This document shows, in pieces, positions 11,100 to 38,600 of a stretch of 64,000 nt of DNA (within the stretch, counting starts at the first letter, position 1; every line of letters starts with the position of its first letter). A model generated the notes under the pieces. The model was given only the letters and a program-made list of their open reading frames with translations. It searched no databases and was not told the DNA's origin. The position numbers and the translations under genes were made by a program. The stretch is taken from NCBI GenBank assembly GCA_049968235.1, contig JBMFRC010000001.1:1-64000 (forward strand), given 5' to 3'. The stretch is from Candidatus Hydrogenedens sp. (GTDB lineage Bacteria > Hydrogenedentota > Hydrogenedentia > Hydrogenedentales > Hydrogenedentaceae).

Positions 11100-11179
11100 G
11101 AACATTTGCGGGGAAAAACATATAGATGAAATTTTAGACATTTTATAAACACACAAAGAACATTTAGAGGAATTATGTC

Positions 11180-22007: not shown

Positions 22008-22620
22008 ACGCAATATACTTGGTATGACATTAATTGAATTAACCATGACAGTAGGTTTGATGGCAATTGTTATGGGAGCGTTATTTACACTTTCGTTGAG
22101 CCTGACCGATACAGTTCAAAATTATAACGCAACTATGACAGCGACAGACGAGGCACGTCGAGCATTACAAATTTTAATCCCTCGTTTATCTCATGCATCC
22201 CGGCAGACTGTAAATTGGAATGAATTACCGGGAACTGTCCTTCGATTTCGTATGCCAACGGATTTGGATGGGAATGGTACATGTGTAGATGTAAGTGGAA
22301 ACCTTGAATTAGGAAATGTTGTAACTGTACAACGGGATACACAGGACGCCAATAATGATGGGATGACAGATAATCAATTGGTCATGATTCAGGGAAATAA
22401 TGTTACTGTTCTGGCAAATCACTTATTTAATCCTCCTGAAGTGGGAAACCCGGATGGCACTTTTAATGATACCAATGGAAATGGGAGGTTAGACCGTGGC
22501 TTCTTTATTACTATAGATAATAACACTATTCAGGTTCATATTGATACGGTAGGTCAATCTCGTCGTGGACATCAGTTTGTAATAAATGTAGAAGAGCGTG
22601 TGGTTCCAAGAAATCCATAA
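21994..22620 (+). CDS. Prepilin-type pseudopilin-like protein 2
   Basis: NILG|MTLIELTMTVGLMAIVMGALF has G-1 and E+5. Overlaps the upstream gene by 14 nt. Confidence 0.7.
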   Translation: MYPIKRNILGMTLIELTMTVGLMAIVMGALFTLSLSLTDTVQNYNATMTATDEARRALQILIPRLSHASRQTVNWNELPGTVLRFRMPTDLDGNGTCVDVSGNLELGNVVTVQRDTQDANNDGMTDNQLVMIQGNNVTVLANHLFNPPEVGNPDGTFNDTNGNGRLDRGFFITIDNNTIQVHIDTVGQSRRGHQFVINVEERVVPRNP

Positions 22621-22635
22621 GAGAGGTGTTTTATT

Positions 22636-24372
22636 ATGATGATCAGACAGAATATATATTTCACTCGTCCTTGCGGAAAAGAAGAGGGTATGGCTATGAT
22701 TATTGCTCTGATTTTTGTAACGGTAGCCATTGCATTGCTCAGCATCCTCTCTGTACAAGTAATTAACCAAAATCTGCAACAAAATAGATATTCCGATTTT
22801 CGGGATGCATTCTGGGGAGTTGTTTCTGCTGTTCAGGAAAGTAAAAGTTCGATAGAAATAGGGGGGAATGGTTTGGTCGGTGTTGAAAACTGGACTCCTT
22901 CGTATAATGCAAATAATGAACCTATTCTTCCTTCCTTTGATAGTCCTTCGGTTACACCTCGCACATTACCCTCTGACCCAACGGTTCAATATTTTGCAAT
23001 AGCAGTCCCCTGGGAGAATGATAATTTTGATAATAATGGAGATGGTCTCGTTGATGATATATCCGAAGTGGATATGGTTACTATATATGCATTGGCGAAA
23101 AAAAATGGGACAATACGCCGATTAGAGGTAATAACGGATAGCACTGATGTAAATGTATGGAGAAATGCTATATTTGCGGGTGACGGACAAACCGGAAATG
23201 TAGTAAATGGAAATGTCAGTATTCATGGTTCAGTTCATGTGTTAGGGAACAATCTTTTACCTGGAAATCCCGCCATAACCGCATTGGACCTGAGTGGAAC
23301 TGCTTTGATACATAACAATTATCAGGGAGTTCCCGGTATTTTGCGACAACGGGTTCCTCCTTTGCCTACGACAGTGTTTGATGGAGAAACTGTAGATACT
23401 TTAAATGCTAAACTTCGTGTAAAACGCGGGATGGTCGGTTTATCCGGTAATTCTGAAATTGGAGAGCCTAATGTTCCAGGTAATAGTTGGAAAGAAACGA
23501 TGGATGGGACTTTTGTTAATGATGGATGGACTGGAAATCAGACTGTACCGGATGGAGGACGGGGAATTCCTAAAAATGTATTTAGTGATAATGGCTGGAA
23601 TGAACTTTATGATTTGGGGAATCGTGTTAGTTTTCCGAGACTTACAGATGATTGGCGAGAACCTGATGGTTCAAAAGTAATGAACCCGAATACGGGTAAT
23701 TGGTATAGTATGGAAGACTATTTTTCACAGGTGCTACTGGCTGACGCTGTTATTCCAAATGATGGTGTATTTAATGGAAATTTAGTATTAAATGCAAAAG
23801 GAAACAAAATCTTCTGGGATGCGACAACCGGAACTTACCTGAATGGGTCATTACCTGCATCACTACCCCCGAATGACCATGATTATATCTGGTTTGACCC
23901 AGCAACCAATGTTTTAAGAATTAATGGACAAATCCGTATAAATGGCAATCTTACATTTACCGGCGGTGGAAATGACCGTACTATTAACTATAGTGGTAGA
24001 GCTGCATTACTTGTTTATGGAGATATTACTATAGATTCAGATCTTGTTACATGTAATAACGGGGTTCCCAATAATTTTCAGAATAGTTTTCCGGTTAATA
24101 ACATTATAGGACTTATGAGTTCTAAAAACATGTACATTGGAAACACTGCACAGTGCGACATTATGGGTGCTTTTTATGCTCAAAATATGATAAAAATTTC
24201 AAAGCAAACGGATGTAATGGGAACCATTGTTTCAAGTTATTTTGACATGGGTTCACAGGTCCCGAATATTTATCAAGTCCCGGCTCTGGCAGATAATCTT
24301 CCTTATGGAATGATTGCTAATTATCCAATCACTACTTTACAGCAAGTTGGTTGGCGTGAATTGGGACTGTAA
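22636..24372 (+). CDS. Large (578 aa) PilX/GspK-like minor pseudopilin
   Basis: KEEG|MAMIIALIFVTVAIALLSIL is a prepilin-like hydrophobic N-terminus without E+5, as in GspK/PilX. A large Asn/Gly-rich globular domain follows. Confidence 0.5.
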   Translation: MMIRQNIYFTRPCGKEEGMAMIIALIFVTVAIALLSILSVQVINQNLQQNRYSDFRDAFWGVVSAVQESKSSIEIGGNGLVGVENWTPSYNANNEPILPSFDSPSVTPRTLPSDPTVQYFAIAVPWENDNFDNNGDGLVDDISEVDMVTIYALAKKNGTIRRLEVITDSTDVNVWRNAIFAGDGQTGNVVNGNVSIHGSVHVLGNNLLPGNPAITALDLSGTALIHNNYQGVPGILRQRVPPLPTTVFDGETVDTLNAKLRVKRGMVGLSGNSEIGEPNVPGNSWKETMDGTFVNDGWTGNQTVPDGGRGIPKNVFSDNGWNELYDLGNRVSFPRLTDDWREPDGSKVMNPNTGNWYSMEDYFSQVLLADAVIPNDGVFNGNLVLNAKGNKIFWDATTGTYLNGSLPASLPPNDHDYIWFDPATNVLRINGQIRINGNLTFTGGGNDRTINYSGRAALLVYGDITIDSDLVTCNNGVPNNFQNSFPVNNIIGLMSSKNMYIGNTAQCDIMGAFYAQNMIKISKQTDVMGTIVSSYFDMGSQVPNIYQVPALADNLPYGMIANYPITTLQQVGWRELGL

Positions 24373-24391
24373 TTTAGAAAGGAACTGTAGA

Positions 24392-24934
24392 ATGAGTAAA
24401 TATACAAAAAACATATCTTTTTTATCGTATTTATTATTCTTTGCTGCTGTTGTATTAGTTGCTTTAGGAATTGTTGGTGTTATTTGGGGTAAGACAGGTA
24501 GTGTGGAGGCAGAAGTTCAGGAAAGTGCAATAAAAACCTTAAATACCACACCGACATTAACAGCGGATATAGAAGAGCAATCTGTCAAAGAACCCCCAAA
24601 AGACTTAAATAATCCTGACCAATTAATTGAATATTATCACTCTCAATTAGAACAAAATCCTCAGGACCCGAATACACCAGCATATTTGTGTGCAATGGGG
24701 AATCTTTATAAAATGAAGAAAATGGATTGTGCCAGTGCTATTCCTTATTATGAAAAAGTTATTATTGATTATCCCGATTGGGAAGGGATTAAATCTATTT
24801 ATCCTGAGTTAGCATCCTGTTATGAAGAAGTAAATGACTATAAGGGGAAAATCTGGATACACGAAGAAATGATGAAAAGGTTTCCGGAGGATTCGCAAGA
24901 ATATCTTTTCGCAAAGAAAGCACTCGGTTTATAA
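24392..24934 (+). CDS. Membrane-anchored TPR-like protein
   Basis: N-terminal TM (FLSYLLFFAAVVLVALGIVGVIWG), then a TPR-like segment (AYLCAMGNLYKMKKMDCASAIPYYEKVIIDYP). Confidence 0.5.
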   Translation: MSKYTKNISFLSYLLFFAAVVLVALGIVGVIWGKTGSVEAEVQESAIKTLNTTPTLTADIEEQSVKEPPKDLNNPDQLIEYYHSQLEQNPQDPNTPAYLCAMGNLYKMKKMDCASAIPYYEKVIIDYPDWEGIKSIYPELASCYEEVNDYKGKIWIHEEMMKRFPEDSQEYLFAKKALGL

Positions 24935-25168: not shown

Positions 25169-25390
25169 TCAAGATTTTATTACTGCGTGTTTACATTTAC
25201 TCCGTATTTCTTCGGGGCATTGGTCAATATATTTACAACAATGTTCTGATGTATCTCCGGCAATTTCACAGGCTTTTTCGCTTCGTGCCCCCAAGCGAGA
25301 ACGTGCTAATAAATGGATAGAAACCCAGAGAAACCCTAATATTAAAGCAAATGTAATTGCTAATAACATAGTAAAGAATATAGTTTTCAT
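25169..25390 (-). CDS. Small (73 aa) membrane protein with Cys-rich C-terminal tail
   Basis: MKTIFFTMLLAITFALILGFLWVSIHLL, then ..ACEIAGDTSEHCCKYIDQCPEEIRSKCKH. Last gene of the giant-lipoprotein operon. Confidence 0.45.
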   Translation of the reverse strand: MKTIFFTMLLAITFALILGFLWVSIHLLARSRLGARSEKACEIAGDTSEHCCKYIDQCPEEIRSKCKHAVIKS

Positions 25391-25467
25391 TTTTAATCAT
25401 ACCTTTGTATAGGAAAACAAAGAACTACATCATTTTATTTCATAACGTGAAAAACTTATAACGGATT

Positions 25468-28400
25468 TTACTTGCTTACATTAAGAACCAAATTTACGGT
25501 GCCATTCACTGCATTACTTATAATCGGTATGATAGGATTAAAGACATCGATTTGCGTTTTGTTAACTGTAATAGTAACTACATCTTCTGTTCCACCTCCG
25601 GCATAAGGAGCAACAGAACCGGCTAATTTCGAGAAGGTATAACCTGATGCTGGTAACGACGCACGGTCGAAAGACCACGAAAGAGTAGATTGCCCTGTAT
25701 TTCGTATAATAAATGATTGCCCTTCTACTGTATTAGGGGAATTGAAGTTTAGCACAGTCGGAATAACTGTAATTTCAGGGGGTAATATTGTGCAATAGAC
25801 ATAAACGAATCGTTCTATAGGATTATTGAATATGGAATCGAAAGAGAAATGTAGTATGCCTTGGTATGTTCCAGGAAGTAATTCTCCGCGTTCAATGGGT
25901 ATATGTAATTCGTAAGGAATTCCATTCTCGTAGATAATACGGTCTTCCTCATCAGGTTTTACAATATTTCCGAAAAATTCGCCTGTTAAGGCTTCTACAT
26001 CCCAATATAAGCCAACGGATGTTGGACGATGACTACCACCATCGTTGTAGATGTTCACTACTAAATCGTATGTATCATCTGGAAGCGTTATAACATAATT
26101 AGCATCCATAGTAGGTTGCGTTTCTAATCGAGGATATGGATTGGATGGAGCCAGATTGGGTTGTTCTTTCACATCAAATAAATTCGGGTGTGTAAAATAT
26201 TTTGATTCAGCATTTGCCGTTATTTGCGGGAAAACCACATCAAATTGTAATTGGAAGGGCTGGGTTACATTTTCAAAGTGTAAGACACACAGAGAACCAA
26301 ATGCTCCATAATCCAGTGGTTGATTATTCGGGGAAGTAAACTGGAGTATACTGCCCAGCTGATTAAAATTCCAATCAGGAATTAAACCGCCTTCTGCAAA
26401 TGTAGGTTGACGCACAGACATAGTCATGGAGGGGTTTCCACCTACAGAACCCACAGAGAATTGGAGGGAGTTGATGTTGCGTTGAATATAATCTGCATAA
26501 ACAACAATATCAACGGTCTGTGAGTTAGTGTCAATACCATCGGTTCGTAATTTGATTTGTCCCAAACGCACATCATTGGCATATTTTAGTAAGTCAATTT
26601 GTGTATGTCCAAAAGCAGTAGATATAGCTCCCTGGTCGAGTAGACATGGAGATCCATCATCCGACGGAGAATTGAAGGCTAAGTCTATTTTCACAGTAGC
26701 ACCTGACATCTGGTTCAGGGCAACAAACTCAAAAAGCAGTTGGCTTTGAATATCTTTAGCAATTGAGCGGTCACATGGGTCATTGGAATCTGTTTCAAGC
26801 CAATCTGCTAATGTAGAAAATAATGGCTTTGAAATGGGCTTTCCTACATTATCTACAGATTCGGTGATTTTATTCCGTGTAGAATACAAATGGCCTCCTG
26901 TTTCCTCTATCAATTGGACTAATATATTTTTATTTACATTTTCACCCCAGCAGAGGAAGAAAGGTCTTACACGTGAACCTTTTAGAAAATCTACCACAGG
27001 TGATATTTGTCCCGGTGGAGTGGTTAACTTTCCATCGGTTATTACTAACATAATACGGTCATCGGATACATCAAAAGGAATATGGTCCCCATCAGCATCC
27101 AGCATTTCTAAAGCACCGCTGGTTATTGCAGGCAGTAATGCAGTGGCACCATGGTCAATAATGTCCATACTTAACAATCTATTTTTTACAATATCTTTAT
27201 TAAAGGTAAAGATAGGTTCACCATCATTATTTACTAACATACGAACTGAACTGCCAAACCATTCACGTTCATTGAATATCCCGATTCCTATTTGATAATT
27301 ATCGGGAATATCATCAATAAATGCGGGCAATGTTCGGATATATAACTCTCGAATAGGGTCATTGGCTCCTGCGATTTCCTGTTCTTCTAAAGAACTGGCG
27401 GATTGGAACATACTTCCCGAAGCATCCAACAAGATAAGGATAGTGCCTTTGTGTTGAACCAATCGTTCTGATTTTACCATTGGAATGAGGAATCGACTGG
27501 ATTCCTGAATATCTAAAGGCAGGTCATCTTCTGTAATTATGAATTTGTCTGCAAGTGTAGGAAGAAACGCCTCGGGCAGAGATATGGCGCGTTGCTGAAC
27601 ATCACGAAGTGTCATAACATATCTCATTAGCGAGGGTATGCGTAGATTTGGTGGAGCGGTTTCAACTGTGAGTGTAGGAGCAGAAGCAGTTATGGTAATA
27701 AAAATGGGTGTAACTGTTTCATCGATTACTTTTACACCATTTACAGTCTTTCTACCTATTATTTTTATCTGTCCTGAGGAATTTGCTCCATCCAGACCTT
27801 CACGGTCAATAGAAACGGATATTTCCTTCCACTCTTTAATGGGTCCCTCTATACCATAGCTGAGACCTGATTCTGGAAATACCGATATCCATTCTTTATT
27901 GGGTATCAATAGGAAATCCAGTGCAGTCCCCGGATCACCCAAATTTGCGACATCAAAGGTTTTTAATATTTCACCGGGACCGAAATTCAGGGCACCGGGT
28001 TGTGCTCCAATAATTACTTTTTTAGGCACTTGGATTTCAATGATAATTTTTACGACAGGATTTTCAGGGTCGCTTGTTTGTATAAATAATTCATAGACAT
28101 CACCTAAATAAGTTAAAGTATCTCTACTTACAGCCACTTTTATTTTCTGTTCTTTTCCTTTTCCCAAAGCACCTTGAGTAGGATTAATGCTGGTTATCCA
28201 ACCGGGGATATCTGTGGTTACAATTTTCCATTCTAAAGTACCCTTACCGGTATTTTGTATAACGAACTCTTGTTCGTTTTCTTCAATTGCGAAGTTAAGA
28301 ACGGGTATTCCATTATTATCTGTTCCCTCACCCACTATAGTAACTTCAGGTATTTGTGGAACAGACATACTGGTCTGGACAGTAACGGGGGTTAGATTTG

Positions 28401-29982
28401 TTGATGATTGTACAACAGTTCCTTTTACATTGAATGAATATTGATAGGAGGGTCCTTCGGATTCATTTGCCAATGCCCTGTTAACTTTTACTTTCAAGGT
28501 AGCGGTTTGAGAACCACTTACCTGACCGGAGGCAATTCCTTGATTGTTTACGGGTATAATACTTAACCATGATGGGAATTGTGTTGTGTCAATTTCCCAT
28601 GCAATCGTTTCTTCTCCATCGTTCCAGAGAGCCAGTGTCTCTTCCGCACGAGTTTCACCAAAATTAATCTGTGTGGGAAGGACAACCAATTTCGGGGCTC
28701 GAGATGCTTCCATTTGCACATTAATAACAGAAGAACCCCAACTGGAATTTATTGTAATATTCCCCTGGTATTCGCCAGGTTGCAATATTGTTGGATTTGC
28801 TTCAACAGTAATGGTTTGAGTTCCGCCCGCATCAATATTCCCAGTGGTAGGAGTAATTTTCAGCCAATTTGAGGTATCCGGAATATCTGATGTCCACCGC
28901 CATGCAACAGGGGCAGAATTGTTGATTGTAAAGGTCTGCGTTTGTATCTCACGAATCTTTCCAAAATTAATTAAAGCAGGATTTACCGTTAATGCCCGTG
29001 TTCGCATCCGAACGTTTACAGTAATAGCATAATTGGTGGTGGTATCCCGTATTTGAAGGGTACCTGAATAATCATTTGCAGGGAGGTTTGCAGGGTTTAC
29101 GATAACTGGGACATCTATAGATTGGGCAGGAGGAATATTAAATTGTGGATTTTGAACAGATAGCCATAATTGCGCATCCTGGGATACTCCTATTTGTATA
29201 GATACCTGTTGTGTCCCCAAATTGGAAACTTTTATTATCTGTTGTGCTTGCTGTTCGATTAAACCAAACTGCATCTCATTTGGCGTTACTTGTAATGCGG
29301 AAACTTCCATTGATATGGGAAGGGAAATTTCTTGAGAACCCGCAGTTATTCTTACTGTAGTTTGATAAATACCAACGGCTAAACCACTTCGATTTACGCG
29401 AAAATTCAAAGTTACATTTTGACCGGCAGGGACTTCTCCACTTACAGGTGTTACAGACAGCCATCCTGCGTCTGATGGAATTGTTACTCTCCAATTCGTT
29501 TTAATTGTACTTTGGTTTACTATGTTTGCTTCTAACTCTGTAGCAACCGTTCCGAAATTCAGAGAAAGAGGGCTAACGGATATATTGACAGTTCCTGGTT
29601 TGGTAATACTTACAGTTATCTTCTTCGTATCTCCGACACTTTTAATTATCACCTCTCCTAAACTGGTTCCATCAGAAATACTCGAGCGGTCTGCTATTAA
29701 ATCTAATTGTTGGACTTTTCCTCCGGATAAGGTACCTTTTATTTTGCTGGCTGTGGTTACACCTCCATCATTAGATAATTTCAACCAGATGTCTGATGCC
29801 TCTGCTTCCCATGACCAGTTCCCACTCTGGCTAAATACAATGCGAACAGTTTCTCGCACAGAGGTTTCACCAAAGGTTACCGTTTCTGGTTCTACATAAA
29901 AATGAACCCATGGACAACCTGTTAGTGTTAAAACAATTAAAATGGGAGCAATAATTTTTATTATTACCATCTGTTGCCTCAT
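25468..29982 (-). CDS. Giant (1504 aa) surface lipoprotein with multiple Ig-like (DUF1573/ASH-like) repeats and a central vWA (MIDAS) domain
   Basis: Lipobox LTLTGC. Repeated ..L.FG.V..G....F.I.N.G...L.W.. units. vWA with ILLDASGSM (DxSxS). Paralogous to 30027-33863. Confidence 0.7.
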   Translation of the reverse strand: MRQQMVIIKIIAPILIVLTLTGCPWVHFYVEPETVTFGETSVRETVRIVFSQSGNWSWEAEASDIWLKLSNDGGVTTASKIKGTLSGGKVQQLDLIADRSSISDGTSLGEVIIKSVGDTKKITVSITKPGTVNISVSPLSLNFGTVATELEANIVNQSTIKTNWRVTIPSDAGWLSVTPVSGEVPAGQNVTLNFRVNRSGLAVGIYQTTVRITAGSQEISLPISMEVSALQVTPNEMQFGLIEQQAQQIIKVSNLGTQQVSIQIGVSQDAQLWLSVQNPQFNIPPAQSIDVPVIVNPANLPANDYSGTLQIRDTTTNYAITVNVRMRTRALTVNPALINFGKIREIQTQTFTINNSAPVAWRWTSDIPDTSNWLKITPTTGNIDAGGTQTITVEANPTILQPGEYQGNITINSSWGSSVINVQMEASRAPKLVVLPTQINFGETRAEETLALWNDGEETIAWEIDTTQFPSWLSIIPVNNQGIASGQVSGSQTATLKVKVNRALANESEGPSYQYSFNVKGTVVQSSTNLTPVTVQTSMSVPQIPEVTIVGEGTDNNGIPVLNFAIEENEQEFVIQNTGKGTLEWKIVTTDIPGWITSINPTQGALGKGKEQKIKVAVSRDTLTYLGDVYELFIQTSDPENPVVKIIIEIQVPKKVIIGAQPGALNFGPGEILKTFDVANLGDPGTALDFLLIPNKEWISVFPESGLSYGIEGPIKEWKEISVSIDREGLDGANSSGQIKIIGRKTVNGVKVIDETVTPIFITITASAPTLTVETAPPNLRIPSLMRYVMTLRDVQQRAISLPEAFLPTLADKFIITEDDLPLDIQESSRFLIPMVKSERLVQHKGTILILLDASGSMFQSASSLEEQEIAGANDPIRELYIRTLPAFIDDIPDNYQIGIGIFNEREWFGSSVRMLVNNDGEPIFTFNKDIVKNRLLSMDIIDHGATALLPAITSGALEMLDADGDHIPFDVSDDRIMLVITDGKLTTPPGQISPVVDFLKGSRVRPFFLCWGENVNKNILVQLIEETGGHLYSTRNKITESVDNVGKPISKPLFSTLADWLETDSNDPCDRSIAKDIQSQLLFEFVALNQMSGATVKIDLAFNSPSDDGSPCLLDQGAISTAFGHTQIDLLKYANDVRLGQIKLRTDGIDTNSQTVDIVVYADYIQRNINSLQFSVGSVGGNPSMTMSVRQPTFAEGGLIPDWNFNQLGSILQFTSPNNQPLDYGAFGSLCVLHFENVTQPFQLQFDVVFPQITANAESKYFTHPNLFDVKEQPNLAPSNPYPRLETQPTMDANYVITLPDDTYDLVVNIYNDGGSHRPTSVGLYWDVEALTGEFFGNIVKPDEEDRIIYENGIPYELHIPIERGELLPGTYQGILHFSFDSIFNNPIERFVYVYCTILPPEITVIPTVLNFNSPNTVEGQSFIIRNTGQSTLSWSFDRASLPASGYTFSKLAGSVAPYAGGGTEDVVTITVNKTQIDVFNPIIPIISNAVNGTVNLVLNVSK

Positions 29983-30026
29983 GCGAAGGCTCCTGTCTTC
30001 TAATTCTTAATGTTATTGTTTATTTA

Positions 30027-33000
30027 TTAATTTGCCACTGTAATGTCTATCTTTTCGGAAGCAAATATATCTGTATTAATAATTACATTTCCTGAAGTCA
30101 TAGTTCCGGGTATAAGACCTGTTCGGTCTATAAATAAAGTAACTGTTTCCGTTTCTCCCGGAGACAATTCGGAATCGGGAGTATTGGAATTACCGGATAA
30201 TCCGTATTTAATATCTGTAACCCATGAGGGATACGATGTTATTTGCCAATTGAATGTATCCAATCGGTTATTATGAACGATAAATGTAATGGAATTGTTC
30301 CCTACGGGAATGTCCAATCGTGTTGGAACTATAAATTTTCCGGGAATGTTCTTATCGTTTGGAGCAGGGTCCTGGAAATCAGTAATACCATCTTTATCGT
30401 TATCCCAGGCACCTGTACTTTCTGGGTCAAAGGTTAATCCTGCAAGTCCTGCGATTGTTGTAGATGGTCCAGCGACTTTTGCCGATATAGTAATGGGGAG
30501 GAAGCCATCAATATAAGTAGGGCCACCGGGATAAAGGAAATACTTGGTGCGTGAAGATTGCCCTATACTTCCGATGTATACCAGAGATTCGTTATCAACA
30601 CGCATGGCAAGATTTAAGACAGGGTCTGTATCTCCAAAAGATTGCACATACGCATCCAAACCTGTGATTGTAATTTTAAATAGATTCCCGAAGGCACCAT
30701 ATTTGAATGCTTTATCTTCAGAATTTAATAGAAGGTATACACCATCACCTTCATTAATAAATCGCCAACCATCGTTGGTAGTGATAAGCCCATCTCCGGC
30801 TAATTCAACCTTCATATTTATATTGGCAAGGAGTAAGTTCCATTGTTCCGCTGTTACATTGTTCGGTTTTTGTAAGAAATAGCGTGTTCTGAGGAAATAG
30901 ACATCTCTTGGAATGTAATCTGCACGGACAAATACTTCTGCCTGCCAGGTTCTTTGAGTTGAATTGTTGGGGTCATTCCCGTAGAACAAACCCGAAGTAA
31001 CTAAAGATAATTGACCTGCACGGACATCGCCAATATAAGCAAATGCATCTTCTTCAAAAATACCTGTCAGGGAAGGTAAATTATTGCCGGGCTGATATTC
31101 AAATCGGATGGTATACTTAAAATCTTGTTGTTTAGGTGTGATATAGGTTAAAACAAGTTGATTTTTTAATTCCTCCCAGACACGACCTGCTGAGTCTTCT
31201 AATGCTAATGTTATATTTTCCCATGCTCCTGCGGTGGTTACGCCTTGTAATTTTATAATTCCATTTCCATCATTAGAAGTAATTGAAATTTGTTGATTTA
31301 GAACCACACCTGTAGTTGCAAGAGCAGGATTAGTTCTTATTGTAACTTTTGTAGAGCCACTGGCAGATATCGTGCCCTGAACAGGTTCTATATTGGTTAT
31401 CCATGCCGGCAAATTACGGGTATCTGCCTGCCAGCCTAAATTGTCTTTCCCTTCATTATAAATAAAGAAGGTCAAATCATTGGGTTGATTATTCATATCG
31501 GGACGAAGTACACAGGATTTTTGCCCACCTAACAGTTGAAGCAAACCATTTACATCATTGGCAATATATAAATGTCCACCAGTCTCTTTAGCAAGGGGTA
31601 TTAAATCTGCAGTATTCACAGAACCCCCAGAAGCAAATCCCAGAGGATACAAACGAATTAGATTATCGTGTGCTTTTTCTTTGATTTCACTTGCATCAAT
31701 AGTAGATGCATTATCCCATCCGTCTGAAATAAATATAATGGATTTTACATCTGCATCATCAAAAGGTAGTGGGTTCTTCAAATCTTCGGCAATTAGCCTA
31801 TCCACAGCCTCTGAAAGTGCATCATAAATATCCGAAGCACCCATTAAGTTGGGGGGAACATAGAAAGTTTCTAATGATTCTTTTAGTAATTCCTTATCCG
31901 TTGTAAAAGAACGGATTAATCGCCTTGTTTGCTGGCGGTCATTATGGAACATCAACGCAATTTGATAGGAAGCGGGTAGGTCGTAAATAAAATCAACAAC
32001 TGCCTTTTTCACTTTTTCTATTGCTTCTCCGGGCAACATGGGATTATCTTTATTATCCACACCTGCATAATACATACTGCCCGTATAATCTAATAGAATA
32101 ATCATATTCCCTTTGATATTTTCCGGTCCAGTAAGGAAATAATTTGTTTCCCTTAAATCTAAGGGAACGCTGTCTTCGGATATGGTAAGACTAATTTTGG
32201 AACGGTCTACAGGTGTAATTGTTGGGATGGCTCGTGAAGATGAATCACGTAATAAGAATACATATCGCATTACATAAGGCGGTCTACTACGATTCAAGGC
32301 TCCTTCGATTCGCAAGGGTTGTTTTTCGACACGCACTTTTATGGTTTTGGATTCAACACCATTTAATGGAGTTGCTTCATTAGGGAATATAATAGGATTA
32401 CGGTCCATTGCTTCTATTGTTATTGTGCGATATTCTATATCTTCTTGAAGATTATCCCGATTAATGGTAACTAAAATTTGCACACCGTCAATTAATAGAT
32501 TTAATTCGCTGGGATGATAGAAATCTTCAGGATTACCATCTTCACCATTGGCTCCTCCGACAACAGGTCGAACATCGGCAATTACAGGATTGGCTTTTCC
32601 TTCATCTTCATGCGTAATACGGAAATACAATTTTGAATCTCGTGGTCCAACATTAGCAATCCAAAATTCCTTTTGAACATCTTCCTGTCCAAAATCCAAT
32701 ACATCCAAAGGGATTATTTCCGGACGTGCAGTTGTTTCCTGAGGTGGCTCCGAAATGGCTATTTCGGGGAGGCTTATCTGTTCAATTTTAATTGGGATAA
32801 TTAACAAACAACTTCGTGTATCTATAATAATGGAATATTGTCCTGCTCCCAAAGTAATCTCTTTGGGCTTGGTAACAGTTACAGAAATCTCGACTTTGTC
32901 ATTTGGATTTACTATTCCTGCAGAAGGAGTAGCGGAAATACTATTGATAGCGATACCTGTAGGTCCGACTACCTGAAGATTCCATTGGGCTTGTGTGCTA

Positions 33001-33863
33001 CTGCTGTTTGTTAATGTCAGTTTGGACACGGGTAAATTCGTTGTGGTACTGTCGGATGTCAATGATTCTTTTGTTACAGACAGAACCAATTGGGCAGGTT
33101 CTGCAGTAAAACTAGTTTCAGGACATATCTTTGCAAAACGAAATTCAACCAATTGAATACCTAAGGAGGATTCAAAAAACAAACCAAAATCTGTCGACAC
33201 AGTTTCATCCCAACGGACTGTAACAGGGGTACTCCCTCCTGCGGGTAAAGTCCCTAAATTAGGAGATACAGAAATATCTGCGGGAATATTGGTTCGCACG
33301 GAAGAATTATTTAAATCAGGGACATATTTAACTGACCAGTTAAAACTCTCAGTACCTACATTTTGAACGGTTACAGTAGTTTCAGTTACATCTGGACGGA
33401 TAGTAAATACCTGAGGGGTTACAGATAAAGCACTGCTAACTTCCATCGAAACAGTTACAACCTGAGTTTTTCCCGAGACACGAAACTGAAGCCCTACATC
33501 TTTATATTCACCGGAAGATAAACCGTTTCTTGAGACTTTTGCATGAATTAACTGAGATGTAGATGTTTGCCCGGATGTTGGTTCCGCAGTTAACCACGGG
33601 ATATCTTGTTCTACCCATTGTTTTTGACTTGCATTCCAGACGACTTCAGTTAAAGACCATTTTATACCCAAACTACTTAATGACCTTATATACAAGGATT
33701 TTTCGATTGCTTTATCTCCAAAGGACAAAGCCTGTGGAGACACTTCAAATCCTGTTGTAAATGGACAACCACTTGCAAGAACAAGGATGAATATTAGCAA
33801 TCCGAGATGAAGTAAAAAAGTAATAGATGGATATTTCCGTTTATTCATAGGGGCTCCTTCCAA
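30027..33863 (-). CDS. Giant (1278 aa) surface lipoprotein, Ig-like repeats plus central vWA; paralog of 25468-29982
   Basis: Lipobox LVLASGC. vWA MIILLDYTGSMYY (DxTxS). Block ..RDSSSRAIPTITPVDRSKISLTISEDSVPLDLRE.. is colinear with ..RDVQQRAISLPEAF..FIITEDDLPLDIQE.. of the paralog. Confidence 0.7.
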   Translation of the reverse strand: MEGAPMNKRKYPSITFLLHLGLLIFILVLASGCPFTTGFEVSPQALSFGDKAIEKSLYIRSLSSLGIKWSLTEVVWNASQKQWVEQDIPWLTAEPTSGQTSTSQLIHAKVSRNGLSSGEYKDVGLQFRVSGKTQVVTVSMEVSSALSVTPQVFTIRPDVTETTVTVQNVGTESFNWSVKYVPDLNNSSVRTNIPADISVSPNLGTLPAGGSTPVTVRWDETVSTDFGLFFESSLGIQLVEFRFAKICPETSFTAEPAQLVLSVTKESLTSDSTTTNLPVSKLTLTNSSSTQAQWNLQVVGPTGIAINSISATPSAGIVNPNDKVEISVTVTKPKEITLGAGQYSIIIDTRSCLLIIPIKIEQISLPEIAISEPPQETTARPEIIPLDVLDFGQEDVQKEFWIANVGPRDSKLYFRITHEDEGKANPVIADVRPVVGGANGEDGNPEDFYHPSELNLLIDGVQILVTINRDNLQEDIEYRTITIEAMDRNPIIFPNEATPLNGVESKTIKVRVEKQPLRIEGALNRSRPPYVMRYVFLLRDSSSRAIPTITPVDRSKISLTISEDSVPLDLRETNYFLTGPENIKGNMIILLDYTGSMYYAGVDNKDNPMLPGEAIEKVKKAVVDFIYDLPASYQIALMFHNDRQQTRRLIRSFTTDKELLKESLETFYVPPNLMGASDIYDALSEAVDRLIAEDLKNPLPFDDADVKSIIFISDGWDNASTIDASEIKEKAHDNLIRLYPLGFASGGSVNTADLIPLAKETGGHLYIANDVNGLLQLLGGQKSCVLRPDMNNQPNDLTFFIYNEGKDNLGWQADTRNLPAWITNIEPVQGTISASGSTKVTIRTNPALATTGVVLNQQISITSNDGNGIIKLQGVTTAGAWENITLALEDSAGRVWEELKNQLVLTYITPKQQDFKYTIRFEYQPGNNLPSLTGIFEEDAFAYIGDVRAGQLSLVTSGLFYGNDPNNSTQRTWQAEVFVRADYIPRDVYFLRTRYFLQKPNNVTAEQWNLLLANINMKVELAGDGLITTNDGWRFINEGDGVYLLLNSEDKAFKYGAFGNLFKITITGLDAYVQSFGDTDPVLNLAMRVDNESLVYIGSIGQSSRTKYFLYPGGPTYIDGFLPITISAKVAGPSTTIAGLAGLTFDPESTGAWDNDKDGITDFQDPAPNDKNIPGKFIVPTRLDIPVGNNSITFIVHNNRLDTFNWQITSYPSWVTDIKYGLSGNSNTPDSELSPGETETVTLFIDRTGLIPGTMTSGNVIINTDIFASEKIDITVAN

Positions 33864-33912
33864 ATTATTGCCCTTCTATATTCAATTTGATACATATATA
33901 AAACAAATGATT

Positions 33913-34512
33913 TTATTGTTTTGTTTTTTCAGCAAAGACCACATTAACCCCTGCATTTACAAGCGTTTGATAAACTGGTTCAAAATCCTTATAAAAACTA
34001 CCATCATCTTTTACTGTCCATTCAGGACTTAATGTTACGGTATCACCGGGACCCAAACCGCCGGCATTCACATTGGCTATTAATGGTGTCCAATCTCGAA
34101 TATCATTGTCCGGACCGGATATATCCAGATATTCCAGATATTGCATTCCTGCAATAGGTGTTATGTCTGTAATATAATTATTCCCTAAATCCAACCAGAC
34201 CAAATTTTTTAAATCGCGTAAAGGGGAGATGCTTATAATATTATTATCTCTTAAGTCTAATTTAACCAGAGAGGTGCAATACTCAAGCCCTCGTAAATCT
34301 GTAATACCCATACCCCGGGCTGTTAATTCCGTTATAGAATCCAATTCACCCGTACAGAGAATAAAGAAGGGTTTACCGATTGCACTACGAATGGCAGTTT
34401 CCAATGCCCTATCCGGGAACATAATTGATGAGCCCTGTAAGAAACAACACCCCGAAATTGAACTTATCAGGACACAAATACCTATTAAGTTGAATATTAT
34501 TTTCATTCTCAT
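33913..34512 (-). CDS. Lipoprotein with leucine-rich repeats (LRR)
   Basis: Lipobox ISGCC. LRR units LVKLDLRDNNIISISPLRDLKNLVWLDLGNNYITDITPIAGMQYLEYLDISG. Confidence 0.7.
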   Translation of the reverse strand: MRMKIIFNLIGICVLISSISGCCFLQGSSIMFPDRALETAIRSAIGKPFFILCTGELDSITELTARGMGITDLRGLEYCTSLVKLDLRDNNIISISPLRDLKNLVWLDLGNNYITDITPIAGMQYLEYLDISGPDNDIRDWTPLIANVNAGGLGPGDTVTLSPEWTVKDDGSFYKDFEPVYQTLVNAGVNVVFAEKTKQ

Positions 34513-35091
34513 AGTTTAAACCTCTCACATATAAAGGGTTTTTGTAATGTAAAAATGTTTATATTTACATTTAAGTGTTACTACCTGTGTTTGTGGTATT
34601 AATATGGCATTTATCTTCGATAAACAGGAAAAATGGGCTTTCTCCACCCATGAATGTTAAAAGTTTATTAATTAAGAAAGCAATAAAACATAAATCATCT
34701 GACCAACTCGCATACACTGGATGCTTGCTTGAAATCATTCGCACATGTTTCACCGTAGTTTCTCCTTTATTAAATTGTTTCATTATATTAAAATCTTAAT
34801 ATTTAATATACAATCATACATTACAGTTTATCACAAATCACACCATTTGTCAATAATTTCTTGGAAAATTTTACAAAACACAAACTTTTTATAATTCTAC
34901 ATCACTTCATCCCAATAATGTCAAGAATTTTTTGAAAAAAAATAATTATTTTCTAATAATATTACACGGGGATTTCAAAAATTACCACAATATTTATTTC
35001 GAACACTTTTAATCAAAAAATTAAAGAAATAAAAATTGTTATTTTATTTTGATATTGAAATAGATATGATGTTCAAAGAAGGAATCTTTTG

Positions 35092-35679
35092 TTATTTTTC
35101 TTTTCTTTTTATCATTGAGGTTTTTCTACAGCGGTTCATCCGATTTTGCCAATCACCTGTCCAACCTTCCTCGATGGCTTGCTGACATAAAGAGATACAT
35201 TCTTCATATTGTCCCTGTCGTTCTCGGATATCCGACAAGGTATCATATCCCAAATGTGCCGGTAGAGGTATGCCGGGCATTGTTTGTTGGATATGTTCTT
35301 TTACTTCTTTTGACAAATCTATTTGTTTTTTTGAGGTAATTATTAGCAGTGCTGTCTTCGTATCGTTATCTTTTATATCTTCTTCAATATATCTGGATAT
35401 TAATTCTTCCAAAGCATAAAAACAGTCCAGGACATCTTCTACTTCCATTTCTTCGAGGTCTTTTTCCATCTTTTTTAACAATGAGTCTGATTGTTCTAAA
35501 TCAGGACGATATGCCAGTTTACTTTTGTTAACAACGATATCTTCATTTTTCTCTACAGGCTCAATAATTGTTACCATAAAAAGACGCTGGCAGTTAGGGC
35601 ATAAAACTTTTTGCCCTATGATTGATGTCGGTAATAAAACCTCTTTAGAACAATAGGGACAGGTAACGATAAATTTCAT
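35092..35679 (-). CDS. Zinc-ribbon domain protein encoded immediately after addA (4-nt overlap)
   Basis: CPYCSKEVLLP...CPNCQRLF is a CxxC..CxxC ribbon. The remainder is acidic and helical. Unknown family. Confidence 0.5.
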   Translation of the reverse strand: MKFIVTCPYCSKEVLLPTSIIGQKVLCPNCQRLFMVTIIEPVEKNEDIVVNKSKLAYRPDLEQSDSLLKKMEKDLEEMEVEDVLDCFYALEELISRYIEEDIKDNDTKTALLIITSKKQIDLSKEVKEHIQQTMPGIPLPAHLGYDTLSDIRERQGQYEECISLCQQAIEEGWTGDWQNRMNRCRKTSMIKRKEK

Positions 35680-38600
35680 TTCTCATAGCCCTGATTTATC
35701 TTTGTTATATATTTTTCAATGGCATGATGTATTTCTGTCTCTAAAACATCACGGACAGAAACCTCTATATCTTTTATATCATATTTTAATTGGTCAATGT
35801 ATACTATAATTAATTTATTATTGACTTTTATTCCCAGATCTTTCATTGCATAATAATAAATCTCTAATTGTTTCCAGTATCGTTGAGCATGATTATCAGC
35901 ATGGGTTCCTGTCTTATAATCAATAATAGTTCCATCGGCAAGTATTGCATCTACAGTTCCTTGAACAAAATAACCTCCTGTTTTCCAGATAAAAGGGGTT
36001 TCCCGCCAGATAGGCGGATTTGCTTTTAAGATAGGATATATAGGATTGTTTATTATTTTACTAAAACACACATCTTTTTCGTTTTTGATTATATCTTCTA
36101 AAATATCCGGGCTAATTATATTCAGAATATATTTTGATAATTGCTCTATGTTTTCTTCGTAAAAATCCCATAGTTGCAATAACTGATGGTAAAATATACC
36201 GCGTTCGGCATGCTCCATACCTAACGATTGTTCATATATTTCATCATTATCTTCATCATAAATATCATCAAAAAGGAAATTCAGTATTTGTGTTACTGAA
36301 ATAGGTTCTGTTTTAAAATGTTGGGGTGTAATCGATATAGGTGGAACTAAATTATATTGCAAAGACTTTATTTCTCTTTTTAAATCTTTTTTCTTAGGCG
36401 AATAATTACTTTCTTCCCTTTCTATAATATAATACAAACCTGTATCCTTTTTTTTATTAAGGGGAAAGCAACTTGCCAGTAATGATAGGCGGGAATTTAT
36501 TTTTTGTTTTTTATAAAATTCTTCGAGATATTTTTTATTTGAAGATAGGATTAAGTAATCGCGGGCACGAGTTAAAGCCACATAAAATAAACGGATATAT
36601 TCCTGATACTCATCATAGGTATTTTGTAACTTTATAATAGTCTCCACAATATTATTTTTTTCATCTTCTTTTTTCTTTGTTTTAATAATTACGCCCATTT
36701 CTTTATGATAATGAACGGCGGTTGATTTTCTGTGTTGCCTTTCTTCGTAGAGCAAAGGCAAAACAACGATGGGATATTCCAGACCTTTTGCCTGATGTAT
36801 TGTGGTTAGAATAACAGCATCTCCTGCTTCTGTTGCAAGGTCTGCCTCTCCTTCCATTATTTTATCGCGGGAGCGTTCTACAAACCTATGGAACTGGTAT
36901 AAACTTACGGGATTGCTTTCTTGATAAGCACGGGCTAATGCTAAAAATTTTTGGAGGTTAGCAATTCGCTGTTCTCCAAACCAATGCCCTAACAAAATGG
37001 ATTCGTAACCTGTTTGAAGAACAATTTCTTGAATAAGTTCGTGGATGGGAAGATGCGTTTTTTTCCGGAAATATTGATATAAGTAACGAACTCTTACATA
37101 AGCACTGTCTTGTGTCAGAGCATCCGGAATATTATTCGTATTTAATAACATATTTCGAAGAGGTAAGTTCATCTGCCAGCGAGTAATCTGTTCATCGGAA
37201 AGTCCGCAGAAAGGTCCCCGTAAGAAAGAAAGCAGGGCTATATCATGATATGGATTTATTAATACCTGAAGGAAATTTAATATGTCTTTTATTTCTGTAA
37301 TTTCAAAAAATCCCCGACTGCTAACGACAAAACAGGGTATGCCTCTGTCTTTTAACGCCTTTTCATATTTATAAATGTAATTTTTCGTGCAAAATAATAA
37401 AGCGAAATCACCATAACATACAGGGCGTAATTTATGCGTCTTTTCATCTACAATCATTAAAGGGTTTTCGTTATGAACTAAGGATTGAATACGCTCTGCA
37501 ATAATTTTAGCCTCAATATCAACATCATCTTCTTTTAATGTTCTTTTATCATCTTCCGAATGGACAGAAAGTAAAAATTCCACACGAGGTTTAGCATAAG
37601 AACTTCGATGTGCTTGCATGGGGATATATGTTTTTTCAACCGCAGACAGGGAATTTGTTTTCTGGAAAAAGGTATTGACAAAATCTAATACTTCCGGAGC
37701 AGACCTAAAATTGTAGTTCAGTGAAAATAGATTATTATCGACAACTGATTGTCGCTGTTCTTGAAAAACTTTTACTTCTGCATTTCGAAATGCATAAATG
37801 GATTGCTTTGCATCACCTACGAAGAAAAAGGAGAGATTGGGATTTGCCGATAACAACAATTGAATTAATTGCACCTGTGTATGGTCTGTATCCTGAAATT
37901 CGTCAATGAAAATATACTTTATTCCCTCAGCAATTTCTTTACATACTTGTGTATGTCTATTCAATAAATCATAGGTTAAATGTATCAAATCATCAAAGTC
38001 CACCACACCTTGCTGGCGTTTATATTGAACCCATTGACGATAGAACTGGTCAAATAAACGAAGTATTCTATATGTAAAAGTCAACGCTTTTTGTGTGGTT
38101 TCATCTTCCGCTTTTAAGTCAACAATCTCTATTCCTATTGTTTTTTTTATATCCTCACGAATTTTCTTTAATTGTTCCTGCAATTCACCACATATATTTC
38201 TATTCTTTATTATCAATCTTGTTTTATTTCCCAATATTGCTTCTTTAATTTGAATAATATGTTCCCGTTGTTTCGCAGTTTGCAATTTTCTCAATTCTGA
38301 GATATAAAAACTACTGAGAGTCTTCATGTTTTTTTCGTCTTCCGGAATTTCTTTATACAATTCCTCTAATTGTGTTATCCATCCATTTACCGTTGTTGAT
38401 TTCACAAAATTTAACAAATATTGCTCATATTTTTCATTTATTCGTTCAATATTTCTATTGATAGATTCTTCAATAGAACATTGATTTACTTCATCCAGCC
38501 ATGGAAGGATATGTAGGGAATTTTGAAAAAGTATTTCTATAATTTTTTGAAAATTTTGTGGTGAAAGTTCTATAACTAGTTCCGGAACTTCCGTATAATT

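What the first reader, a model, noticed from the sequence alone, without database searches (positions are those of the whole stretch)
25169..34512. Operon of LRR lipoprotein, two paralogous giant Ig-repeat/vWA lipoproteins and a small Cys-rich membrane protein
Four co-directional minus-strand genes with 40-50 nt gaps. All three large products have lipoboxes (ISGC, ASGC, LTGC). The two giants (1278 and 1504 aa) share architecture: N-terminal DUF1573/ASH-like Ig repeats (L.FG....T..F.I.N.G...L.W), a central vWA with MIDAS (DASGS / DYTGS), and a C-terminal beta-rich region ending in more Ig repeats. The operon ends in a 73-aa TM protein with tail CEIAGDTSEHCCKYIDQCPEEIRSKCKH. This is an uncharacterised surface adhesion or ligand-binding module and sits convergent to a minor-pseudopilin cluster. 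The vWA-plus-pilin combination recalls PilY1/minor-pilin tip complexes, but the domain organisation differs.
Basis: partly seen in the sequence, partly recalled or inferred. Interest (0 to 1): 0.6.

Follow-up and report, generated by a model that had tools for sequence, protein, structure and literature searches.

The report
Hydrogenedentota signature giant vWA lipoprotein operon
This is a real operon, found in nearly every genome of the uncultured phylum Hydrogenedentota examined, that encodes a leucine-rich-repeat lipoprotein and two giant paralogous lipoproteins with metal-dependent binding heads. It is probably a lipid-anchored envelope binding complex of unknown ligand, and it is not linked to pili.

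Summary
The four minus-strand genes exist, with three lipoboxes, ASH/BACON-type Ig repeats, a central vWA domain with MIDAS residues in both giants, and a small TM/Cys-rich protein.

The window comes from a Candidatus Hydrogenedens MAG.

The order up-LRR-giantA-giantB holds across 77 loci from species-representative genomes, nearly all titled Hydrogenedentota. LRR is present in 60/62, up in 56/59 and the second giant in 57/57. The small Cys-rich protein is accessory (18/46). The pseudopilin neighbourhood is not conserved (5/81), so the PilY1/minor-pilin analogy fails.

The MIDAS motif differs by paralog: D[YF]TGS in A and DxSGS in B.

The best reading is a phylum-specific lipid-anchored A/B/LRR envelope binding complex. 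The anatomy is shown; the function and ligand are inferred. It is a new variant of a known kind, of moderate interest.

The parts
34825..34853 (-). Sigma-70-like promoter candidate (TTGACA-17-TAAACT with a TG extension) upstream of the first gene
   Evidence: Consensus scan, 10/12 matches with TG; sequence read. This is a consensus match only, and the number of such sites in the region is not above the shuffled expectation.
34571..34753 (-). 'up': 60-aa protein (GTG start, AAGGAG ribosome-binding site 7 nt upstream). Consensus MKHxxxISxxxPxxAxxWQDxxCx(13)GGxxPx(7)KCxIPxPN. Invariant residues are M1, H3, C22, P40, K48 and C49. No signal peptide or TM segment is evident. Not in the original finding.
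   Evidence: tblastn finds it directly upstream of the LRR gene in all seven first loci and in 56/59 GTDB loci. Alignments. No Pfam hit. A profile search finds 25 clusters of 56-80 aa; the only organism names given are Hydrogenedentes-type. RBS and start.
33913..34512 (-). LRR lipoprotein, 199 aa, lipobox ISG|C, internalin-type leucine-rich repeats at about residues 29-148
   Evidence: LRR_4 6.8e-15 and LRR_8 6.2e-8. NCBIfam internalin models hit at 1e-18, far below their cut-offs. Directly upstream of the first giant in 60/62 loci. A lipobox-like motif is present in 61/71 orthologues.
30027..33848 (-). Giant A, 1273 aa from ATG 33848 (listed as 1278 aa from TTG 33863). Lipobox ASG|C-P.
   Evidence: More than 120 homologue clusters, mostly 1250-1290 aa, at 38-87% identity.
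32397..33746 (-). Giant A stalk: four ASH/BACON-type Ig domains (residues 40-133, 147-226, 264-352, 383-489)
   Evidence: Pfam; iterated HMM; domain map.
32118..32321 (-). Giant A small beta-sandwich preceding the vWA domain (residues 515-582)
   Evidence: AF2 model m0f2e0e2d9462, strands E18-E78. Most conserved segment (column conservation 0.66).
31518..32111 (-). Giant A vWA domain (residues 585-782) with MIDAS variant D592-x-T594-x-S596, S677, D714
31263..31505 (-). Giant A Ig domain between the vWA and the cohesin-like module (residues 787-867)
   Evidence: Absent in the short-giant sub-lineage.
30564..31202 (-). Giant A cohesin-like beta jelly-roll module (residues 888-1100; motifs GDVRAGQ 945-951 and ADYIPR 981-986)
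30369..30407 (-). Giant A EF-hand/TSP3/dockerin-type calcium-loop motif WDNDKDGITDFQD (residues 1153-1165)
   Evidence: The aspartates are invariant in alignments A4 and A5. By strict regex the motif is in 27/38 A-type and 1/42 B-type proteins, and it is unique in the window. Calcium binding is inferred from the motif only.
30069..30332 (-). Giant A C-terminal Ig domain (residues 1178-1265)
25468..29982 (-). Giant B, 1504 aa, lipobox LTG|C-P, paralogue of A
   Evidence: 100% identical to an NCBI protein named 'MAG: BACON domain-containing protein [Candidatus Hydrogenedens sp.]'. A second giant follows the first in 57/57 loci.
27745..29898 (-). Giant B stalk: seven ASH/BACON-type Ig domains (residues 29-746)
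   Evidence: BACON_2 in 5 stretches at 1.7e-37; iterated HMM.
27478..27678 (-). Giant B pre-vWA beta-sandwich (residues 769-835)
   Evidence: HMM built from the giant-A family matches here. Aligned to A in BLASTP.
26848..27447 (-). Giant B vWA domain (residues 846-1045) with canonical MIDAS D853-x-S855-x-S857, T947, D983
   Evidence: Pfam VWA 1.4e-4, just below the cut-off. A DxSxS motif is in 53/65 second giants. Positions. HMM.
26230..26772 (-). Giant B cohesin-like module (residues 1071-1251; motifs DVRLGQ 1137-1142 and ADYIQR 1163-1168)
   Evidence: The giant-A module HMM matches here. Proteins of B-type length and module position match module profile positions of about 8-185.
25771..26229 (-). 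Giant B-specific region of about 150 aa with no assigned fold (residues 1252-1404)
   Evidence: No HMM or Pfam coverage. Not modelled.
25504..25770 (-). Giant B C-terminal Ig domain (residues 1405-1493)
25169..25390 (-). 'down': 73-aa accessory protein with an N-terminal TM helix, a basic HLLARxRxGxR segment and a Cys-rich tail (C-x10-CC-x5-C-x8-C). The tail is probably cytoplasmic by the positive-inside rule.
   Evidence: Orthologues follow giant B in 18/46 loci. No Pfam, NCBIfam or PADLOC hit.

Best explanation
This is a vertically inherited signature operon of the phylum Hydrogenedentota, with the order up - LRR - giant A - giant B and sometimes 'down'. It most likely builds a lipid-anchored multi-subunit binding complex in the cell envelope.

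Shown: three products carry conserved lipoboxes, so they are made as membrane-anchored lipoproteins. A and B are ancient paralogues with the same plan. Each has a stalk of ASH/BACON-type Ig domains (3-4 in A, 6-7 in B). The stalk carries a conserved head made of a small beta-sandwich, a vWA domain with metal-ligating MIDAS residues, and a cohesin-like jelly roll found in no other protein family detected. A alone adds a DxDxDG calcium-loop motif.

Inferred: A and B work as a pair, because they are always adjacent and each keeps its own MIDAS variant. The Ig stalks act as spacers that hold the heads away from the membrane. The MIDAS sites bind an acidic residue of a ligand or partner through a divalent cation, as in integrin I domains and bacterial vWA adhesins. 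The LRR lipoprotein is a third subunit that clamps a protein partner, possibly a vWA head as GPIb-alpha clamps vWF-A1. The cohesin-like module and the calcium loop mediate protein-protein assembly.

The ligand, the membrane face (surface or periplasm) and the roles of the two tiny proteins are unknown.
For: - Genes, lipoboxes and paralogy.
- Source and distribution: the window matches a Candidatus Hydrogenedens MAG protein at 100%. More than 120 giant-A clusters were found, and every organism name given is Hydrogenedentes-type. 77 loci from species-representative genomes are nearly all titled Hydrogenedentota, and no assembly contributes a second locus.
- Synteny: LRR 60/62, up 56/59, second giant 57/57. 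The surrounding genes differ between loci, and no other universal neighbour exists.
- MIDAS residues are retained and paralogue-specific across 65 loci.
- The head is the most conserved part. It is kept in lineages with shorter stalks.
- The module is restricted to 145 of 1.84e9 representatives.
- Precedent from established knowledge: the MIDAS mechanism of integrin I domains; the GPIb-alpha LRR-vWF A1 complex; and the vWA outer-membrane lipoprotein adhesin CglB (PMC9946355 abstract).
Against: - No experiment or expression data exist. The organism is uncultured.
- Pairing of A with B, and binding of LRR to either, is inferred from synteny only. No multimer prediction could be run.
- Fixed length, fixed repeat number and one locus per genome are unusual for ligand-facing adhesins, which normally vary.
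- Pfam VWA is below its cut-off in B and absent in A for the window's own proteins.
- The MIDAS of A is a variant (DxTxS with Ser in place of Thr) whose metal binding is untested.
- Surface exposure cannot be judged from sequence in this phylum.
Confidence: 0.5

Rival explanations
1. Structural envelope scaffold rather than an adhesin. The lipoproteins face the periplasm, or form a fixed surface lattice, and act as spacers or tethers that organise the envelope of this phylum. Their vWA, cohesin-like and LRR contacts would be made only with endogenous partners.
For: The operon is found across the phylum with one locus per assembly. Giant A length is tightly conserved at 1250-1290 aa over 38-87% identity. 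Conservation is uniform, including the stalk Ig domains at 0.40-0.59. The Ig number is fixed within lineages and A is consistently 3-4 Ig shorter than B. The first Ig strand begins only about 3-8 residues after the lipidated Cys.
Against: No peptidoglycan-binding, OmpA-like or membrane-spanning partner is encoded in the operon. MIDAS-vWA, LRR and BACON-type Ig domains are typical of extracellular binding proteins. Localisation is untestable here.
Confidence: 0.25
2. PilY1-like or minor-pilin-associated tip adhesin. The vWA giants would be displayed by the neighbouring pseudopilin system.
Confidence: 0.04
3. Cellulosome-like docking scaffold. The cohesin-like modules would capture secreted enzymes carrying dockerin-type calcium loops, tethering hydrolases to the cell.
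Confidence: 0.08
4. Bat-like or MoxR-associated vWA system (BatA/BatB aerotolerance-type operon), or a vWA-based defence system.
Against: No MoxR ATPase, DUF58 or TPR BatC/D genes occur in any locus. The giants are lipoproteins with long Ig stalks, not TM-anchored proteins of about 330 aa. There are no PADLOC hits.
Confidence: 0.03

Closest known systems
CglB, the vWA outer-membrane lipoprotein adhesin of the Myxococcus xanthus gliding machinery (PMC9946355)
   Same: Both are lipoproteins with a vWA domain and are proposed to bind through it at the cell envelope. Both depend on partner proteins.
   Different: As recalled from the literature, CglB is a small, essentially single-domain protein held by the Glt outer-membrane complex. 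Here there are two 1273-aa and 1504-aa paralogues with Ig stalks, a cohesin-like module and an LRR partner. No gliding-type genes were seen in the annotated neighbourhoods.
vWA-containing pilus tip adhesins (P. gingivalis Mfa5; Gram-positive SpaC, PitA and RrgA; PilY1)
   Different: There is no pilus context (5/81 loci). There is no sortase motif, no type V pilin genes and no PilY1 domain. The anchor is a lipobox.
Integrin I/I-like domains on Ig-like legs
   Same: Two paralogous chains each place a MIDAS-vWA head on a stalk of Ig-like domains. Ligand binding through a metal-coordinated acidic residue is the natural model.
   Different: There is no beta-propeller, no TM/cytoplasmic tail and no demonstrated heterodimer. 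The resemblance is architectural only.
Cohesin modules of cellulosomal scaffoldins
   Different: There is no sequence-family membership and no dockerin partner identified. The module is larger, at about 200 residues with inserted helices, and exists only in these two paralogue families.
TIGR03436 'acidobact_VWFA' proteins and BatA/BatB
   Same: TIGR03436 is the best sequence-level model for giant A's vWA region (2.3e-8). From my own recollection of that family, it also has a beta segment before the vWA domain.
   Different: The score is far below the family cut-off (33.9 against 81.25 bits). Those are proteins of about 320 aa without Ig stalks, a cohesin-like module or lipoprotein partners.
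GPIb-alpha (LRR) - von Willebrand factor A1 complex
   Same: It is a precedent for an LRR protein clamping a vWA domain. Here an LRR lipoprotein is invariably encoded next to two vWA proteins.
   Different: This is purely an analogy from established structural knowledge. No interaction was tested here.

Membership tests
vWA domain (Pfam PF00092 / MIDAS-type) | Rossmann-like alpha/beta vWA fold | tested here: met
vWA domain (Pfam PF00092 / MIDAS-type) | MIDAS residues DxSxS ... T ... D | tested here: met
   B has D853-S855-S857, T947 and D983, which is canonical. A has D592-T594-S596, S677 and D714, a hydroxyl-conserving variant. Both are conserved across 65 loci. Metal binding itself was not tested.
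vWA domain (Pfam PF00092 / MIDAS-type) | Score above Pfam gathering threshold | tested here: not met
   B scores 22.6 bits against a cut-off of 23.8. A has no hit at E<=0.01. Some orthologues carry a precomputed Pfam VWA hit at E<=1e-5.
Bacterial lipoproteins | Signal peptide ending in a lipobox [LVI][ASTG][GAS]C | tested here: met
   ISGC, ASGC and LTGC follow basic and hydrophobic N-termini. Conserved in 90/99 A, 11/11 B and 61/71 LRR orthologues. Acylation and final membrane are not testable here.
PilY1 / minor-pilin tip complex | PilY1 C-terminal beta-propeller domain | tested here: not met
   No PilY1 Pfam hit. The modelled C-terminal region consists of beta-sandwich and jelly-roll domains.
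PilY1 / minor-pilin tip complex | Conserved genomic linkage to minor pilin genes | tested here: not met
   Prepilin-motif ORFs lie in the flanks of 5/81 loci. Contexts are unrelated in L001, L002 and L005-L007.
Cohesin (Pfam PF00963) | Nine-stranded beta jelly-roll cohesin fold | tested here: met
Cohesin (Pfam PF00963) | Sequence-family membership and a dockerin partner | tested here: not met
   No Pfam Cohesin hit at E<=0.01. No other ORF in the window has the dockerin-like loop motif. A whole-genome dockerin search was not possible.
BatA/BatB (Bacteroides aerotolerance) operon | TM-anchored vWA proteins of about 330 aa with MoxR ATPase, DUF58 and TPR partners | tested here: not met
   None of these families occurs in the window neighbourhood or in six annotated loci. 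The NCBIfam BatA hit is 17 bits against a cut-off of 380.
Internalin-type LRR proteins | Tandem 22-residue LRRs of the internalin class | tested here: met
   LRR_4 6.8e-15 and LRR_8 6.2e-8. The best NCBIfam models are internalins, at 1.2e-18 over residues 29-148. Scores are far below the internalin equivalog cut-offs, so this shows the repeat type only, not an internalin.
CglB-type gliding adhesin | Association with Glt/Agl gliding machinery genes | not tested
   No such genes were seen in the annotated flanks. Genome-wide presence was not examined.
Anti-phage defence systems (PADLOC) | Match to any PADLOC model | tested here: not met
   No hits for the five operon proteins.

The most novel reading that the evidence does not exclude
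The operon encodes a previously unrecognised, phylum-defining envelope machine. It would be an integrin-like heterodimer of two lipid-anchored stalked vWA proteins whose heads pair through a lineage-specific cohesin-like module and a calcium loop. An LRR lipoprotein and a 60-aa His/Cys protein would cap or regulate it. The machine would be essential for how Hydrogenedentota contact substrates, prey or their own outer envelope.
Probability: 0.2. Interest if true: 0.7.

Novelty: new variant of a known kind. Interest (0 to 1): 0.45.

Why it matters
Hydrogenedentota are a globally distributed phylum known from metagenome-assembled genomes, and their cell biology is essentially unknown.

An operon that is present in nearly every genome examined, found in no other clearly identified lineage, and that spends about 9 kb on lipid-anchored stalked binding proteins is a strong candidate for a lineage-defining envelope structure. 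It gives a concrete handle for metaproteomics, cryo-ET and recombinant work: antibody targets, a phylum marker, and heads that can be expressed.

It also adds a new domain combination: beta-sandwich, MIDAS-vWA, then a cohesin-like jelly roll confined to two paralogue families. Two tiny protein families without any annotation come with it.

The function is still inferred, and the building blocks (vWA, Ig, LRR) are familiar. The surprise to a specialist is therefore moderate.

Tried and rejected
1. Pilin or PilY1 linkage: rejected by synteny.

2. Sigma-54 control. Enhancer-binding-protein genes lie upstream in L001 and L006 and in 20/81 loci. But a -24/-12 scan of the 400 nt upstream of 'up' found a good match in only 1/66 loci, and the window has a sigma-70-like site instead. 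This is treated as clade-level synteny.

3. RiPP or precursor-peptide reading of the small proteins. A radical SAM gene and an S8 peptidase follow giant B in L001. They are absent from the other loci annotated, and flank clustering found no such recurrent neighbour.

4. 'up' as a signal peptide. Its central hydrophobic stretch contains K, D or N in many orthologues, so it looks more like an amphipathic helix.

5. Sequence search of PDB with the full giants: nothing useful.

7. afdb50 fold search: the library was unavailable.

8. Defence-system models: no hits.

9. Literature. Two Hydrogenedentota genome papers do not mention vWA, adhesion or lipoproteins. Keyword searches found nothing describing this operon.

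10. The exact giant-B protein was not found by the look-up of encoding contigs, although the same sequence is in the protein collection.

11. The 195-aa zinc-ribbon/TPR-like gene at 35092-35679 was considered as an operon member. It was rejected because it overlaps the AddA-like gene by 4 nt and is syntenic only in close relatives.
Full report
**Observation**

The four minus-strand ORFs exist exactly where stated. They are 73 aa (25169-25390), 1504 aa (25468-29982), 1278 aa from a TTG (30027-33863) and 199 aa (33913-34512). Their translations show the lipoboxes ISG|C, ASG|C and LTG|C and the quoted Cys-rich tail.

The first giant most likely starts at ATG 33848. That codon is preceded by GGAGG, and the orthologues begin MNKRKYPS, which gives 1273 aa. 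The intergenic gaps are then 58, 64, 44 and 77 nt.

Pfam finds LRR_4 (6.8e-15) in the 199-aa protein. In both giants it finds ASH/PapD-type Ig families: BACON_2 at 1.7e-37 in five stretches, HYDIN/VesB-Ig, Cep192 and OCRL-ASH. It also gives a sub-threshold VWA hit in giant B (1.4e-4, 22.6 bits against 23.8). NCBIfam gives TIGR03436 'acidobact_VWFA' at 2.3e-8 for giant A. The giants are paralogues (BLASTP 2e-26, 24% identity over 784 aa including the vWA region).

**Where it comes from and how widespread it is**

Giant B is 100% identical to an NCBI protein named 'MAG: BACON domain-containing protein [Candidatus Hydrogenedens sp.]'.

A search with the C-terminal 778 aa of giant A returned more than 120 clusters at 38-87% identity. 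Most are 1250-1290 aa long, and every organism name given was Hydrogenedentes, Hydrogenedentota or Hydrogenedens.

A scan of one genome per GTDB species found 101 relatives and 77 distinct loci. Practically all are titled Hydrogenedentota. Several MAGs are titled 'uncultured Nitrospirales/Nitrospiraceae', one 'Nitrospiraceae bacterium' and one 'Bathyarchaeia'; I could not verify these labels. Two of the loci (L057, L063) are contig ends from the same assembly, with complementary truncated copies of giant A; no other assembly contributed more than one locus.

For scale, a recent catalogue of the phylum counts 179 genomes, 100 of them non-redundant (PMC11406978). Neither that paper nor PMC10866078 mentions vWA, adhesins or lipoproteins.

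**Operon structure**

Gene contexts from six independent contigs differ completely outside the cluster. All of them keep the order LRR (about 200 aa), giant A, giant B.

It is a small ORF directly upstream of the LRR gene.
- In the window it runs from GTG 34753, with an AAGGAG ribosome-binding site 7 nt upstream, to 34571, giving 60 aa.
- tblastn finds it in all seven first loci, including one where it was not called.
- The alignment shows invariant M1, H3, C22, P40, K48 and C49 and a near-invariant GG.
- It has no Pfam match.
- A profile search finds only 25 clusters of 56-80 aa. The few that carry a name are called hypothetical proteins, from Hydrogenedentes-type MAGs.

Counts over the 77 GTDB loci, taking only loci with enough flanking sequence:

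| Gene | Present / assessable |
|---|---|
| LRR | 60/62 |
| 'up' | 56/59 |
| Second giant | 57/57 |
| 'down' (small TM/Cys-rich protein) | 18/46 |

Clustering of all flanking ORFs finds no further universal neighbour. The core operon is therefore up-LRR-A-B, and 'down' is accessory.

A sigma-70-like site (TTGACA-17-TG-TAAACT) lies at 34853-34825. No conserved sigma-54 promoter was found.

**The pilin question**

The convergent pseudopilin genes are real in the window (N_methyl hits) and in close relative L003. However, prepilin-motif ORFs lie within the flanks of only 5 of 81 loci. No PilY1 domain was detected. The PilY1/minor-pilin analogy is therefore not supported.

**Structure**

An AF2 model of giant A residues 501-1278, built with a 115-sequence alignment, is very confident (pLDDT 94.7, pTM 0.87). 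In order, it shows:
- a small beta-sandwich;
- a vWA domain;
- an Ig domain;
- a large beta module with short helices;
- a well-ordered loop region;
- a terminal Ig domain.

MIDAS positions are D592-T594-S596/S677/D714 in A and D853-S855-S857/T947/D983 in B. Across 65 loci the first giant carries a DxTxS motif (57/65, of which 53 are D[YF]TGS) and the second a DxSxS motif (53/65). Both sites are thus kept under selection but diverged early.

A profile of this module, searched against 1.84 billion representative proteins, hits only 145. About 55 match nearly the whole module and include known giant-A homologues. About 90 are proteins of 1350-1620 aa that match roughly the first two thirds of the profile at about residue 1050-1300, as giant B does. 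By length and module position the module appears confined to these two paralogue families.

Downstream of the module, giant A alone carries WDNDKDGITDFQD, an EF-hand/TSP3/dockerin-type DxDxDGxxDxxD loop with invariant aspartates. It occurs in 27/38 A-type and 1/42 B-type proteins and in no other ORF of the window.

**Comparative anatomy**

HMM mapping in divergent lineages gives these plans:
- A-type: Ig x3-4, beta-sandwich, vWA, (Ig), cohesin-like, (Ig).
- B-type: Ig x6-7, beta-sandwich, vWA, cohesin-like, about 150 aa B-specific, Ig x1-2.

A sub-lineage has giants of about 850 and 1350 aa that keep the head but lose Ig domains. Conservation is highest in Ig4, the beta-sandwich, the vWA and the cohesin-like module of A (0.59-0.66). 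It is lower but still substantial in the stalk (0.40-0.52).

**Interpretation**

*Shown.* This is a vertically inherited operon, specific to the phylum as far as the record titles allow. It encodes three lipobox proteins and one or two tiny proteins. The two giants share a stalk-plus-head plan with MIDAS-competent vWA domains and a lineage-specific cohesin-like module.

*Inferred.* The products form a lipid-anchored complex. A and B would act as a pair. Their Ig stalks would act as spacers. Their MIDAS sites would bind an acidic residue of a ligand or partner through a divalent cation, as in integrin I domains and bacterial vWA adhesins (established knowledge). The LRR lipoprotein would be a protein-binding third subunit; the GPIb-alpha LRR-vWF A1 complex is a structural precedent. 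The cohesin-like module and calcium loop would mediate assembly.

Whether the complex faces outward (adhesin or receptor) or is a fixed envelope scaffold cannot be decided. The fixed length, fixed repeat number and single locus argue for a built-in structure. The domain types argue for extracellular binding.

The tail of 'down' is probably cytoplasmic by the positive-inside rule. 'up' has an invariant His3 and two invariant Cys, which hints at metal binding. Both points are unexplained.

**Comparison with known systems**

The closest functional analogues are vWA lipoprotein or pilus-tip adhesins (CglB, PMC9946355; Mfa5; SpaC and PitA) and integrins. The system is not a member of the PilY1, Bat, cohesin-dockerin or defence families. 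For each of these, at least one defining feature was tested and not met.

**Verdict**

The pilin analogy fails and the operon boundaries needed correction. The system is an undescribed variant of the stalked vWA adhesin-like theme and a signature of an uncultured phylum. The function is inferred, not shown. Interest is 0.45.

Noticed in passing
window 34571-34753 (-): A conserved 60-aa protein upstream of the LRR gene. M1, H3, C22, P40, K48 and C49 are invariant. The N-terminus M-K-H would be an ATCUN-type (X-X-His) motif if the Met is retained, and together with the two Cys this hints at metal binding. It has no family in Pfam.
   Followed up: partly
window 21531-24934 (+): A convergent four-gene cluster. 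It holds two prepilin-type proteins (N_methyl; one has a weak hit to 'Verru_Chthon cassette protein C'), a 578-aa protein with no Pfam hit, and a 206-aa protein with weak YbgF/TPR-like similarity. It is shared only with close relative L003.
   Followed up: partly
window 35092-42219 (-): An AddA/AddB-like helicase-nuclease pair (1139 and 1056 aa). It is followed by a 195-aa protein with weak zinc-ribbon and TPR hits whose start overlaps the AddA-like stop by 4 nt, so the two may be translationally coupled. The arrangement is conserved in L003.
   Followed up: no
window 9645-12547 (+): Two adjacent paralogous proteins (484 and 455 aa) with weak neutral/alkaline ceramidase N-terminal domain hits. 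A GT2 glycosyltransferase and a 787-aa protein without any Pfam hit follow.
   Followed up: no
L001 14801-18623: In this high-GC relative, giant B is followed by a radical SAM protein (458 aa) and an S8 peptidase with a P-domain instead of the small Cys-rich protein. This was not seen in the other annotated loci.
   Followed up: partly
L001 1-557; L006 7019-8566; 20 of 81 loci: Sigma-54 enhancer-binding-protein genes recur upstream of the operon in a subset of loci, mostly on the same strand. No conserved -24/-12 promoter was found upstream of 'up'.
   Followed up: partly
L064-L084 (e.g. L072 6975-13677): A sub-lineage has much shorter giants (about 850 and 1350 aa). They keep the beta-sandwich-vWA-cohesin-like head but have fewer Ig domains. 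Another group (L007, L053, L056, L059) has a giant A of about 1080 aa that lacks the terminal Ig.
   Followed up: partly
L012, L014, L016, L019, L053, L054, L056 and others: Several loci carrying the operon come from MAGs titled 'uncultured Nitrospirales/Nitrospiraceae bacterium', 'Nitrospiraceae bacterium' or 'Candidatus Bathyarchaeia archaeon'. These are probably naming or binning artefacts rather than true occurrences outside Hydrogenedentota, but I could not verify this.
   Followed up: no
P0151 (3244 aa), P0152 (2221 aa), L037, L042: Some database proteins and stop-to-stop ORFs carrying the module are two to three times the normal length, with 2-3 matched stretches. They may be A-B fusions or assembly or frameshift artefacts.
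   Followed up: no
window 25169-25390 (-) and 21 orthologues: The accessory 'down' protein family has a strongly conserved juxtamembrane motif (W-x-x-[VI]-H-L-L-A-R-x-R-x-G-x-R) followed by G-C-x-G-P ... C-C ... C. It has no match in Pfam, NCBIfam or PADLOC.
   Followed up: partly
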